Below, in pieces: positions 1-2,725 of a stretch of 2,725 nt of DNA. The translations under genes and the position numbers were made by a program. The notes beneath the pieces were generated by a model. It had not been told where the DNA came from. It did not search any database and worked only from the letters and a program-made list of their open reading frames with translations. The stretch's first letter is position 1, and every line of letters starts with the position of its first letter. Origin of the DNA: Naegleria gruberi (taxonomy: Eukaryota); the NCBI GenBank assembly GCA_000004985.1, contig GG739248.1. One strand, 5' to 3'.

Positions 1-21
1 ACATATAATTAATTTCCACTT

Positions 22-1041
22 CTATTCCATCATATATGAAATTCCCTCATATAAAAAGTAAAATCTTTGATATTTTTCATCAAAACTAATACTAGACACA
101 GTTCCTTCTCCCTTATACTCCTTTTCCACTTTCATACTTTCTAAATTCATTACACAAATCAGTGAAGAGTTAGTGTTGGGGAAGAGAACTTTTCTGCTTG
201 ATGGTTCATAACACAAACACCAAATTGATTGTGTGGTGCTGAGTTGACTAGTTTCAAATTGGAGGTTGTGAGATAATTTACACTTGAAAAATGATTTTTC
301 TCTTGTGACAATTAAGAATAGATCCAACTCTTTCGAATAAATCATACCCATTGGTTTTCCAAGAGTCACACCTCCAAAATCATAAACTACTTTCAGCAAG
401 TTACCATCCAAGGAATCGTACAGTTTCAATCTTTTGTTATCAGTATCGGCAACAACAATTAAATTTCCCCTAACATTCGAATACTTTCCATTCGACTCGA
501 CACATACTACTGATCGACCATATGAAAATCCCTCCTCAGAATACGAATCATATCTCAATCCTTTAACCCAAATACAGTTAGTTTCCTTTCCAGATTTACT
601 ATTCTCAATCCACTCCTTAATATTATACTTGTATAATCTTTGATCAGAGCTGAGAAATATTAAATAATCAATAATTTGAGAATTTATATCCACGAAACTT
701 TCCAAACACATTGCCCTCACAGAATAGTACATGGTGTGAACTAATTTTGTTATTGGATTTCCTCCCTGCAAGTTTCGAATAATATTTCCATCATCATTCA
801 GATAGACAGTTAGTCCATACTGTCCGAAACCAAAATTCTCCTCCACAATAATATAATCACCATATGATAACAATATACTAATTCCACCACCGCCACGAGC
901 TTTCTTCAGATTAGTTTCATTTAATTTGATTTTTAAATTAAATATATCCAATTGCTTATGATGATCGAGACGAAATTTGTCTAATAATTGTGATGATCCG
1001 ATGGATTGATCGAGTAAGAGAATGAGTTGATCATTTGACAT
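22..1041 (-). CDS. Hypothetical protein with NHL-repeat-like / six-bladed beta-propeller-like sequence pattern (complete ORF, ATG at 1041, TAG stop at 22-24)
   Basis: It is an uninterrupted 339-codon ORF and the longest in the window. The A-rich start context aaaaaaaATG is seen on the minus strand. The translation has recurring motifs typical of NHL/propeller blades. Examples: 'GNLIVVADTDNKRLKLYDSLDGNLLKVV', 'GKPMGMIYSKELDLFLIVTREKSFF', 'YGLTVYLNDDGNIIRNL'. The pattern is a hydrophobic strand, then VAD-xx-N-x-R-[IL]-x-x-[FY]-D, then a G-rich turn. Amino-acid composition is not low-complexity. The antisense 69-aa ORF (434..643) is nested inside and explained by it. The functional call is by motif recognition only; no search was run. 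Confidence 0.6.
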   Translation of the reverse strand: MSNDQLILLLDQSIGSSQLLDKFRLDHHKQLDIFNLKIKLNETNLKKARGGGGISILLSYGDYIIVEENFGFGQYGLTVYLNDDGNIIRNLQGGNPITKLVHTMYYSVRAMCLESFVDINSQIIDYLIFLSSDQRLYKYNIKEWIENSKSGKETNCIWVKGLRYDSYSEEGFSYGRSVVCVESNGKYSNVRGNLIVVADTDNKRLKLYDSLDGNLLKVVYDFGGVTLGKPMGMIYSKELDLFLIVTREKSFFKCKLSHNLQFETSQLSTTQSIWCLCYEPSSRKVLFPNTNSSLICVMNLESMKVEKEYKGEGTVSSISFDEKYQRFYFLYEGISYMME

Positions 1042-1183
1042 TTTTTTAATTATTGGAAATAAGAAAGATAAACCTGTAAAAAATTTTGAGTGGTTAAACT
1101 ACAAAGTGAACTATTTACTAGTTTTTCATTAACAAATTATTAAGGACTAATTTCGATTTTTCACAACATTATTTGTCAACCTG

Positions 1184-1569
1184 TACAGCACGTTTACTTC
1201 AAATTTGACGCGTTTTTTGAAAGAAAATAAATTAGTTAGAAAAAATTTTGTTGTTCTTCTGCTGTCAAATCCAAAATAAGCATTTCAATAGAACAACACC
1301 TAACCACTCGTTCTTACTCATTTCTACATATTTTTGAGAATGCTGCCACCCCAAGGGGTATGTCAATGCGAGGATTCATAATTTGAAGTCAGATTTCAAA
1401 ACTACCTTAATTCCATCGAGAAATTAGCATTTTGTTGAATAAAATATTATCGTTACAGATTCTTTTCAAATGGAGTTGAGTTTACTTGCCAAATCAAAAT
1501 TGAAAGATGAAATACTTTAAATTTTAAAAAAAACAATTTTAATTTCCCCAAATCTTGTCAAACTTGAAG
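1184..1569. repeat. Copy 1 of a 386-bp direct tandem repeat unit
   Basis: Direct reading shows 1184..1569 aligns base-for-base with 1570..1955 at a constant offset of 386 and no indels. I count 6 substitutions, at roughly 1234/1235, 1251, 1305, 1359 and 1473, matching 1620/1621, 1637, 1691, 1745 and 1859. Weaker homology extends about 12 bp to the left of copy 1: 'ttgtcaacctg' versus the unit-end 'ttgtcaaacttgaag'. Confidence 0.9.
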
Positions 1570-1588
1570 TACAGCACGTTTACTTCAA
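1564..1588. repeat. Inter-unit junction hairpin: 8-bp inverted repeat TTGAAGTA / TACTTCAA around 9-nt spacer CAGCACGTT
   Basis: 1564..1571 'ttgaagta' is the reverse complement of 1581..1588 'tacttcaa'. The hairpin arises because the truncated right-end sequence of unit 1 abuts the left TIR of unit 2. Confidence 0.7.
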
Positions 1589-1955
1589 ATTTGACGCGTT
1601 TTTTGAAAGAAAATAAATTGTTTAGAAAAAATTTTGCTGTTCTTCTGCTGTCAAATCCAAAATAAGCATTTCAATAGAACAACACCTAATCACTCGTTCT
1701 TACTCATTTCTACATATTTTTGAGAATGCTGCCACCCCAAGGGGCATGTCAATGCGAGGATTCATAATTTGAAGTCAGATTTCAAAACTACCTTAATTCC
1801 ATCGAGAAATTAGCATTTTGTTGAATAAAATATTATCGTTACAGATTCTTTTCAAATGAAGTTGAGTTTACTTGCCAAATCAAAATTGAAAGATGAAATA
1901 CTTTAAATTTTAAAAAAAACAATTTTAATTTCCCCAAATCTTGTCAAACTTGAAG
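1570..1955. repeat. Copy 2 of the 386-bp direct tandem repeat unit
   Basis: The evidence is the same as for copy 1: about 98% identity and head-to-tail orientation. Confidence 0.9.
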
Positions 1956-1977
1956 TAAACGTGCTGTAAACGTGCTG
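1956..1977. repeat. 11-bp tandem duplication TAAACGTGCTG x2 (+ partial 'TAACG' at 1978..1982) = reverse complement of the unit-start core CAGCACGTTTA
   Basis: Read directly: 1956..1966 equals 1967..1977, both 'taaacgtgctg'. The revcomp 'cagcacgttta' occurs at 1186..1196 and 1572..1582. Confidence 0.85.
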
Positions 1978-2136
1978 TAACGATATTTAAAACAATATTC
2001 GAAAATACATACTGGATACATGCCATCTTTAGTATCTTTCCAACTTTACAAATAAGGTAATTATGTTAGTCCATACGAGCGACAGTAACTTTTGTGCATT
2101 TTCTATACAATCGTGAGCAGTAATCAAATATTTGTT

Positions 2137-2143
2137 TATATAA
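2137..2143 (+). promoter_or_regulatory. TATA-like element TATATAA upstream of ORF2
   Basis: The sequence 'tttgtttatataacaac' places TATATAA about 69-75 bp upstream of the ATG at 2212. Position and sequence are consistent with a eukaryotic core promoter. This is a sequence match only. Confidence 0.25.
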
Positions 2144-2211
2144 CAACAACATTGTTTTTCATTTTCGTTGTGTTTAGTCTTGGATAACAAACTTAAAAGA
2201 AATAACAAGAA

Positions 2212-2673
2212 ATGGAACAAGTTAAAGTTTACAGAAGTGCAGTTATTAATGCGAGTGTGGAGACTGTGTGGCAAGTTGTGAAGAATTTCAACGAGCTTCC
2301 AAAGTGGACGGGTGTTGTTTCGGATAGTGTATTGGAAGGTGGAATGCAAGATAATTCAATTGGATGTGTGAGAGTTGTTTCTCTGTTGAATCCGAATCCT
2401 CAAGATGATAGACCAATTAGAGAACAATTAATTGCCTATGATTCAAGAAATCACTCCTTCACATACAAGATTTTAAGTGGACCTAAACCTTTCGAATATT
2501 TTAATGAATATTATGCAACAGTAACTTTAGTCAAAATTACAGATTCTAATCAGACATTCATTGAGTGGAAATCTGAATTTACCTGTCCACAAGGAAACCA
2601 AGAACAATTCGAGAAATTTGCAGGTGCAGTTTACATGAAGGGAATTAAATCTCTTCAACAACAATTTCCTTAA
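2212..2673 (+). CDS. SRPBCC / Bet v1-fold 'polyketide cyclase-dehydrase-like' (Polyketide_cyc2-type) small ligand-binding protein, 153 aa, complete (ATG 2212, TAA 2671-2673)
   Basis: The ORF is complete with start context agaaATG. Its N-terminus 'VYRSAVINASVETVWQVVKNFNELPKWTGVVSDSVLEGG' matches the hallmark pattern of the SRPBCC family: [IV]x[AS]SxExVWxxVxDFxxLPxW, then a glycine-rich loop. It goes on with 'GCVRVVSL', 'IREQLIAYDSRNHSFTYKILSGPKPFEYFNEYYATVTLVKITDSNQTFIEWKSEF'. That follows the family pattern: a beta-strand, 'E.L...D...h.f.Y.i..gp.P...y......l', then a 'T.v.W' strand. The length of about 150 aa is typical of the single-domain family. An AATAAA lies 9-14 nt downstream of the stop. 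Confidence 0.65.
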   Translation: MEQVKVYRSAVINASVETVWQVVKNFNELPKWTGVVSDSVLEGGMQDNSIGCVRVVSLLNPNPQDDRPIREQLIAYDSRNHSFTYKILSGPKPFEYFNEYYATVTLVKITDSNQTFIEWKSEFTCPQGNQEQFEKFAGAVYMKGIKSLQQQFP

Positions 2674-2681
2674 ATTGTTAC

Positions 2682-2687
2682 AATAAA
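2682..2687 (+). promoter_or_regulatory. Putative polyadenylation signal AATAAA for ORF2 transcript
   Basis: AATAAA begins 9 nt after the TAA stop at 2671..2673 ('taaattgttacAATAAAtttcaac'). A short 3'UTR with a canonical hexamer is typical of compact AT-rich eukaryotic genomes. Confidence 0.3.
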
Positions 2688-2725
2688 TTTCAACATTTGA
2701 AAAGAAATCTTCAAAATTGGATGAA

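What the first reader, a model, noticed from the sequence alone, without database searches (positions are those of the whole stretch)
1184..1979. About 0.8-kb TIR-bounded, TA-flanked non-coding element built from two near-identical 386-bp tandem units, sitting between divergent promoters
The sequence shows two things directly. A 386-bp unit occurs twice head-to-tail with 6 mismatches and no indels. The array is also bounded by a perfect 19-bp inverted repeat, TACAGCACGTTTACTTCAA at 1184..1202 against its reverse complement at 1950..1968. This extends to 25/26 bp over 1184..1209 versus 1943..1968. If the element ends are CAG...CTG, TA dinucleotides flank both ends. TA flanks with CAG-type termini are the signature of Tc1/mariner-superfamily insertions. 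The lack of any ORF would make it a non-autonomous MITE-like derivative. The internal duplication looks odd: the junction between units lacks the distal 11 bp of the right TIR, which is present only at the far right end. This suggests unequal exchange or replication slippage inside one element rather than two independent insertions. About 98% identity between units implies a recent duplication.
Basis: partly seen in the sequence, partly recalled or inferred. Interest (0 to 1): 0.6.

Follow-up and report, generated by a model that had tools for sequence, protein, structure and literature searches.

The report
Nested pair of small TA-targeting transposons
The 0.8-kb block between two Naegleria gruberi genes is two copies of a 395-bp non-coding "cut-and-paste" transposon, one inserted into the end of the other; a closely related amoeba sequence lacks the whole block and has a single TA there, so this is an ordinary mobile element that was active recently.

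Summary
In detail: a 386-bp period occurs twice (6 mismatches, no indels), and the array is bounded by a perfect 19-bp (25/26) inverted repeat with TA on both sides. The window is a complete 2,725-bp scaffold of Naegleria gruberi.

The MITE reading is supported. An environmental contig (L091) is 98% identical over both flanking genes. It lacks exactly window 1186..1979 (794 bp) and has one TA at that point, which makes it a clean empty site with a TA target-site duplication.

The "tandem duplication by slippage" reading is not supported. Those same 11 bp sit as an extra copy at 1969..1979. This is the pattern expected if a second full 395-bp copy (M2, 1572..1966, TA-flanked) inserted into the TA that lies 9 bp from the right end of a first copy (M1, 1186..1569 + TA + 1969..1977, also 395 bp).

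The element has no ORF, no protein homolog and no Rfam match. Genome-wide copy number, the transposase source and the state of the allelic locus on a 310-kb scaffold could not be tested, because no N. gruberi genome DNA was reachable.

Verdict: a Tc1/mariner-type MITE, a new member of a known kind, of low to moderate interest.

The parts
1184..1185 (.). Left TA target-site duplication of the outer copy M1
   Evidence: The empty-site contig L091 has a single TA here...TTGTCAACAACCTG TA ACGATATTG....
1186..1569 (+). Outer copy M1, left 384 bp. It includes the left TIR at 1186..1209 and the inner 13 nt of its right TIR (GTCAAACTTGAAG, 1557..1569).
   Evidence: The nested-insertion reconstruction gives 384 + TA + 9 = 395 bp, with 6 mismatches to M2.
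1570..1571 (.). A TA inside M1's right TIR. It was the target of the second insertion and is now the left TSD of M2.
   Evidence: The intact right TIR of M2 reads TTGAAG-TA-AACGTGCTG. In M1 the same sequence is split at this TA.
1572..1966 (+). Inner, intact copy M2 (395 bp, CAG...CTG). Its left TIR is 1572..1595 and its right TIR is 1943..1966. GC content is 30%, and it has no ORF.
   Evidence: Folded as single-stranded DNA it forms a terminal 19+6-bp stem, z = -3.9 against shuffles.
1967..1968 (.). Right TA target-site duplication of M2
   Evidence: Sequence parse.
1969..1977 (+). The displaced last 9 bp of M1's right TIR (AACGTGCTG)
   Evidence: It is identical to M2's 1958..1966. TRF sees this as an 11-bp tandem at 1955..1980. 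It is absent from the empty site together with the rest of the block.
1978..1979 (.). Right TA target-site duplication of M1
   Evidence: In the window the TA is followed by ACGATATTT. L091 reads TA ACGATATTG.
22..1041 (-). Flanking gene: a 339-aa orphan 'predicted protein' (NAEGRDRAFT_76917). Its ATG lies 142 bp from the insertion site.
   Evidence: It is 100% identical to N. gruberi EFC35428.1. Pfam gives only weak, sub-threshold WD40/beta-propeller hits.
2212..2673 (+). Flanking gene: a 153-aa SRPBCC / Polyketide_cyc2 protein. Its ATG lies 232 bp from the insertion site.
   Evidence: Pfam PF10604, E = 3e-20. It is 100% identical to N. gruberi EFC35427.1 and EFC39580.1.

Best explanation
[quoted passage not shown] The element has no coding capacity. 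Its ends are 5'-CAGCACGTTTACTTCAA(A/G)TTTGAC...-3', forming roughly 24-bp inverted repeats. It integrates at TA and duplicates that TA, as Tc1/mariner (IS630-Tc1-mariner) transposons do. Copy M1 first inserted into a TA in the 376-bp spacer between two divergent genes. Copy M2 then inserted into the TA located 9 bp from M1's right end. This split M1's right inverted repeat and produced an apparent 386-bp 'tandem repeat' plus an 11-bp 'tandem repeat'. What is shown: the termini, the TA duplication, the precise presence/absence polymorphism and the nested architecture. What is inferred: that a DDE/D Tc1/mariner-like transposase encoded elsewhere binds the inverted repeats and moves the element in trans by cut-and-paste; that M1 arrived before M2 at this locus; and that the insertion is recent.
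For: (1) Empty site. L091 is a 1,751-bp ENA metagenome contig carrying the same two divergent genes. It aligns to window 139..1180 (97.2%) and 1975..2679 (97.9%) and has 98.2% identity overall once 1186..1979 is removed. Its spacer is 374 bp against 376 bp reconstructed, and it has a single TA at the junction. (2) Nested parse. M1 (1186..1569 + TA + 1969..1977) and M2 (1572..1966) are both exactly 395 bp and differ at 6 positions. The displaced 9 nt match perfectly. Each copy is flanked by TA. (3) The inverted repeat is far beyond chance: 0 matches in 200 shuffles, 25/26 complementarity. (4) The element is non-coding. It has no ORF longer than 36 aa. A concatenated six-frame peptide query found nothing at E <= 10 among 5.8 billion proteins. 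There is no Rfam family above threshold and no tRNA. (5) The source organism is N. gruberi. (6) Nested Stowaway-type (TA) MITE insertions into other MITEs are documented elsewhere (PMC3695323).
Against: No other copy of the family was seen outside this window. None was found in IMG/VR or in the prokaryotic genome collection. In the metagenome collection the 24-mer gave 0 hits, and the 89 hits to the 17-mer did not extend beyond about 20-37 nt, so they are chance matches. The N. gruberi genome itself could not be searched, so dispersed copy number is unknown. No transposase with matching inverted repeats was identified, so the superfamily assignment rests on the TA duplication and the terminal sequence only. 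Published surveys put classified TEs in N. gruberi at only about 0.28% of the genome (bioRxiv 10.64898/2026.06.24.734286), so the family is probably small. The dimer was not checked against raw reads.
Confidence: 0.85

Rival explanations
1. A single MITE inserted here. It then underwent a 386-bp internal tandem duplication and a separate 11-bp duplication at its right end, both by replication slippage or unequal exchange at GTA microhomologies.
For: TRF does report two tandem arrays, with periods 386 and 11. Both are bounded by the trinucleotide GTA, at 1183-85, 1569-71, 1955-57, 1966-68 and 1977-79. The two units are 98.4% identical.
Against: It needs two independent events that happen to share a boundary and together mimic a TA-flanked nested insertion exactly. 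Both reconstructed copies come out at exactly 395 bp. The 'extra' 11 bp equal the 'missing' 11 bp. One transposition event explains all of this, and the element is independently shown to target TA.
Confidence: 0.07
2. The dimer is an assembly artefact. Reads from two different (allelic or paralogous) monomer copies were chained in this tiny 2.7-kb Sanger scaffold.
For: The window is a complete unplaced 2,725-bp scaffold. A second copy of the locus exists on a 310-kb scaffold. Repeats often mis-assemble.
Against: A mis-join would not be expected to create a split inverted repeat with perfectly placed TA duplications and a displaced 9-bp terminus. The flanks are collinear with an independent assembly. 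Even if this model were true, the element would still be a polymorphic MITE.
Confidence: 0.05
3. This is not a mobile element. It is a local duplication in an intergenic region with a fortuitous inverted terminus.
For: No dispersed copies could be demonstrated with the collections available.
Against: There is a precise 794-bp presence/absence difference with a single TA in the empty allele. A 19-bp perfect inverted repeat was never seen in shuffles. The absence of hits reflects the absence of Naegleria DNA from the searchable collections, not a search of the genome.
Confidence: 0.02

Closest known systems
Tc1/mariner-derived MITEs (Stowaway-like elements of plants; mariner/pogo-derived MITEs of animals and protists)
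   Same: Size of a few hundred bp. AT-rich (30% GC). No ORF. Terminal inverted repeats. TA target-site duplication confirmed by an empty site. Located close to genes. Nested insertion into another copy, as reported for carrot DcSto elements (PMC3695323).
   Different: The terminal sequence (CAGCACGTTTACTTCAA...) is not the Stowaway CTCCCTCC consensus (from my own knowledge of that family), so this is not Stowaway sensu stricto. The host is a heterolobosean amoeba with very few classified TEs. No autonomous partner is known, and copy number is unknown.
Autonomous Tc1/pogo-type elements (for example Tc1, whose ends begin CAGTGC... and which duplicates TA)
   Same: 5'-CAG termini flanked by TA, and inverted repeats of a few tens of bp (the Tc1 side of this comparison is from my own knowledge). 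The inferred cut-and-paste mechanism is the same.
   Different: There is no transposase gene or remnant here. Sequence similarity of the ends to any named element was not tested, because no TE library was available.
MITE-derived tandem arrays / satellite seeds
   Same: A head-to-tail dimer of a MITE that repeat finders score as a tandem repeat.
   Different: There are only two units. The arrangement is explained by a nested insertion into the terminal repeat, not by array expansion. There is no evidence of further amplification.

Membership tests
MITE (miniature inverted-repeat transposable element, generic definition) | Small size (under about 800 bp) and no coding capacity | tested here: met
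   The monomer is 395 bp. The longest ORF is 36 aa. A six-frame peptide query found no homolog at E <= 10.
MITE (generic definition) | Terminal inverted repeats | tested here: met
   17/17 plus 6/6 matches with one mismatch, excluding the TA. No such match occurred in 200 shuffles.
MITE (generic definition) | Target-site duplication shown by comparison with an unoccupied site | tested here: met
   L091 has a single TA where the window has TA-794 bp-TA. The inner copy independently shows a TA duplication of a site whose undisrupted form is visible in its own right TIR.
MITE (generic definition) | Multiple dispersed, homogeneous copies in the genome | not testable with these tools
   Two copies (98.5% identical) are present in the window. 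The N. gruberi genome is not in any searchable DNA collection. Scans of viral, metagenome and prokaryote collections were negative or gave only chance matches.
Tc1/mariner (IS630-Tc1-mariner) superfamily, non-autonomous member | Insertion at TA with 2-bp TA duplication | tested here: met
   Two independent insertion events, M1 and M2, both occurred at TA.
Tc1/mariner (IS630-Tc1-mariner) superfamily, non-autonomous member | Ends shared with an autonomous element encoding a DD(E/D) Tc1/mariner transposase | not testable with these tools
   No Naegleria genome DNA or TE library was available, and no literature on Tc1/mariner in Naegleria was found. Other superfamilies listed with 2-bp duplications (ISL2EU, from my own knowledge of Repbase classification) therefore cannot be formally excluded.
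Stowaway (plant MITE family sensu stricto) | Conserved terminal CTCCCTCC-type inverted repeat | tested here: not met
   The termini read CAGCACGTTT.... The Stowaway consensus is quoted from my own knowledge. The element is like Stowaway in mechanism but is not a member.
Simple tandem duplication / minisatellite | Head-to-tail units whose boundaries are explained by slippage alone | tested here: not met
   The period-386 array comes with a displaced 9-bp terminus and TA duplications that fit a nested insertion exactly.

The most novel reading that the evidence does not exclude
This MITE family may still be active, or have been active very recently, in N. gruberi. It may be heterozygous at this locus in the reference strain NEG-M, and it may preferentially re-insert into the TA inside its own inverted repeat. 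That would build head-to-tail dimers, a possible first step toward MITE-derived tandem arrays. It would also imply a functional TA-targeting transposase in an organism with very few TEs and poor genetic tools.
Probability: 0.25. Interest if true: 0.45.

Novelty: new member of a known kind. Interest (0 to 1): 0.25.

Why it matters
This is a textbook-type MITE, and the mechanism is not new. It has local value in three respects. First, it documents a polymorphic and therefore evolutionarily recent DNA-transposon insertion in Naegleria gruberi, a genome reported to contain very few classified TEs. Second, it shows that an apparent 'tandem repeat' can be a nested self-insertion, which matters for repeat annotation. 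Third, it probably explains why this 2.7-kb haplotype fragment stayed unplaced in the assembly. If the cognate transposase is intact, it could be of practical interest as a genetic tool for Naegleria.

Tried and rejected
(1) Looking for other copies by DNA pattern. The 19-mer TIR and an internal 20-mer were absent from IMG/VR. The 24-mer degenerate TIR was absent from metagenome contigs and from prokaryotic genomes. The 17-mer gave 89 metagenome hits, about the number I estimated chance alone would give, and blastn showed none extending beyond roughly 20-37 nt.

(2) Looking for spuriously called ORFs from other copies. A 272-aa concatenation of all stop-free stretches of the element was searched against 5.8 billion proteins and returned nothing at E <= 10.

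(3) Fetching the allelic N. gruberi locus on the 310-kb scaffold through exact-protein look-ups of P0002 and P0005, and of the window's own ORFs. All came back 'not on record', so the NEG-M main-scaffold allele could not be examined.

(4) Known RNA genes. There was no Rfam hit near a gathering score and no tRNA.

(5) Literature on Naegleria MITEs or Tc1/mariner. Nothing specific was found. The Naegleria genome paper is not held.

(6) A mirror-image model, with one copy inserted into the TA of the left TIR, was considered and rejected. The left end shows no duplicated 9-11 bp.

(7) Mobilisation of the M1[M2] composite as one unit was considered unlikely. M1's right end retains only 9 bp of its repeat next to the cleavage site. 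This is inference and was not tested.

Full report
SOURCE AND CONTEXT. The 339-aa ORF at 22..1041 (-) is 100% identical to a 'predicted protein' of Naegleria gruberi whose only contig is 2,725 bp long. The window is therefore a complete small scaffold of that assembly. The ORF at 2212..2673 (+) is a 153-aa SRPBCC/Polyketide_cyc2 protein (Pfam E = 3e-20). It is also 100% identical to N. gruberi entries. The two genes are divergent, and the spacer between them is 1,170 bp (1042..2211). GC content is about 26-36% throughout.

THE OBSERVATION.
- TRF finds a period-386 array at 1183..1957 with 2.0 copies, 98% matches and no indels.
- The in-register comparison gives 6 mismatches.
- The 19-mer TACAGCACGTTTACTTCAA lies at 1184 and 1570 on the + strand and at 1950..1968 on the - strand. 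No match appeared in 200 shuffles.
- The repeat extends to 25/26.
- No ORF longer than 36 aa lies in the block.

TRF also reports an 11-bp tandem (GTAAACGTGCT, 2.4 copies) at 1955..1980.

WHAT THE DIMER REALLY IS. Take the element as CAG...CTG flanked by TA. The intact right end then reads TTGAAG-TA-AACGTGCTG-TA, so a TA lies 9 bp from the terminus. The window parses without remainder as follows:

- flank: ...CAACCTG
- TA (1184-85)
- M1 left part, 384 bp (1186..1569), ending ...TTGAAG
- TA (1570-71)
- M2, 395 bp (1572..1966)
- TA (1967-68)
- AACGTGCTG (1969..1977)
- TA (1978-79)
- flank: ACGATATTT...

Rejoining M1 as 1186..1569 + TA + 1969..1977 gives exactly 395 bp, the same length as M2. The two copies differ at 6 positions, and none of those lies in the displaced 9 nt. 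A single event explains both the 11 bp 'missing' at the junction and the 11 bp 'extra' at the right end: a second full copy inserted into the TA inside the first copy's right inverted repeat and duplicated that TA. The slippage model needs two independent duplications (386 bp and 11 bp) that share a boundary and happen to reproduce this architecture. I rate it as much less likely. Nested insertions of TA-targeting MITEs into other MITEs are known, for example in carrot DcSto elements (PMC3695323).

PROOF OF MOBILITY: AN EMPTY SITE. The SRPBCC protein's 90% cluster contains an ENA member, P0004. Its 1,751-bp contig L091 (ERZ929261, run ERR1078381) carries the same two divergent genes with a 374-bp spacer. 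BLASTN aligns L091 1..1048 to window 139..1180 (97.2%) and L091 1052..1751 to window 1975..2679 (97.9%). With 1186..1979 removed from the window, the two sequences are 98.2% identical over 1,757 aligned columns. At the junction L091 reads ...TTTGTCAACAACCTG-TA-ACGATATTGAAAAC..., that is, one TA and nothing else.

The 794 bp absent from L091 are exactly M1 + M2 + two extra TAs. This confirms three things: the element boundaries (CAG...CTG), the TA duplication, and that the extra 11 bp at 1969..1979 belong to the insertion and not to the flank. L091 has no footprint, so it most simply represents the ancestral unoccupied site. The insertion lies 142 bp from the ATG of the (-) gene and 232 bp from the ATG of the (+) gene. 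The reconstructed empty spacer is 376 bp.

NATURE OF THE ELEMENT.
- It is 395 bp long, with 30% GC.
- Its inverted repeats are about 24 bp, with weaker complementarity continuing to roughly 64-70 nt.
- Folded as single-stranded DNA it forms a terminal stem (z = -3.9).
- It contains no tRNA and no Rfam family near threshold.
- A concatenation of all its stop-free translations finds no protein at E <= 10 among 5.8 billion sequences.

It therefore meets the structural definition of a MITE. Both insertion events occurred at TA, and the ends begin 5'-CAG. From established knowledge of DNA-transposon superfamilies, this points to IS630-Tc1-mariner. The most likely mechanism is inferred, not shown: a DD(E/D) transposase encoded elsewhere binds the inverted repeats, excises the element and integrates it at TA. 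I could not identify that transposase. Rarer superfamilies with 2-bp duplications therefore cannot be formally excluded.

WHAT COULD NOT BE ESTABLISHED. No searchable DNA collection contains the N. gruberi genome.
- Scans of viral contigs were empty.
- The metagenome scan with the 24-mer was empty. The 17-mer scan gave only chance matches.
- The scan of prokaryotic genomes was empty.
- Exact-protein look-ups for the N. gruberi copies returned 'not on record'.

Genome-wide copy number and the autonomous partner thus remain open. Published figures suggest that any family is small. Classified TEs make up about 0.28% of the N. gruberi genome (bioRxiv 10.64898/2026.06.24.734286), and total repeats make up 5.1% (PMC9928731).

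A SECOND ASSEMBLY COPY OF THE LOCUS. The identical SRPBCC protein (EFC39580.1, D2VU71) and a 340-aa protein 97% identical to the window's 339-aa protein (P0005 = EFC39635.1, D2VU70) lie on a 310,422-bp scaffold. P0005 shares the N-terminal MSIDHD variant with L091. The window is therefore most likely the alternative haplotype of that locus; N. gruberi is described as a heterozygous diploid (PMC9928731). Its flanks extend only 1,185 bp and 746 bp from the insertion. I infer that reads containing the insertion could not be merged with the other haplotype, which would make the insertion heterozygous in the reference strain. This was not tested.

TIMING. M1 and M2 differ by 1.5% (6/395). The flanks differ from L091 by 1.8%. 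Both insertions are absent from L091, so they are young on the scale of divergence within the N. gruberi lineage. A more distant SRPBCC homolog (68% identity, L090) has a different upstream neighbour and no element.

VERDICT. The MITE/Tc1-mariner reading is supported and now rests on an empty site. The 'internal slippage' reading is replaced by a nested self-insertion. This is a new member of a well-known kind of element: an ordinary finding, with modest interest as evidence of recent DNA-transposon activity in a TE-poor protist.

Noticed in passing
window 1..2725 (whole scaffold): The window is an entire unplaced 2,725-bp N. gruberi scaffold. It duplicates a locus on a 310,422-bp scaffold: the SRPBCC protein is identical there, and the neighbouring protein is 97% identical (340 aa against 339 aa). 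It is probably the alternative haplotype, kept separate by the 794-bp insertion.
   Followed up: partly
window 1027..1041 and L091 885..909: The N-terminus of the 339-aa gene differs by a 6-bp indel. The window encodes MSNDQL. The metagenome contig and the 310-kb-scaffold allele both encode MSIDHDQL.
   Followed up: partly
window 1176..1183 vs L091 1043..1053: A 3-bp CAA indel (TGTCAACCTG against TGTCAACAACCTG) lies immediately left of the insertion site. It looks like ordinary short-repeat length variation and is not part of the target-site duplication.
   Followed up: no
window 22..1041 (-): The 339-aa protein is an orphan. Its only database relatives are its own N. gruberi allele and the L091 fragment. 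Pfam gives only sub-threshold WD40/beta-propeller matches (ANAPC4_WD40 at 20.3 bits against a cutoff of 22.9).
   Followed up: partly
L090 1..1599: A 68%-identical SRPBCC homolog from another metagenome (ERZ27254845) has a different, co-oriented upstream neighbour and a 133-bp spacer. The divergent gene pair is therefore not conserved at that evolutionary distance.
   Followed up: no
window 1349..1358 and 1735..1744: Each MITE copy carries the perfect 10-bp palindrome CCCCAAGGGG near its centre. It sits in the most GC-rich patch of an otherwise AT-rich element, and one of the six M1/M2 differences lies immediately after it (1359). Its significance is unknown.
   Followed up: no
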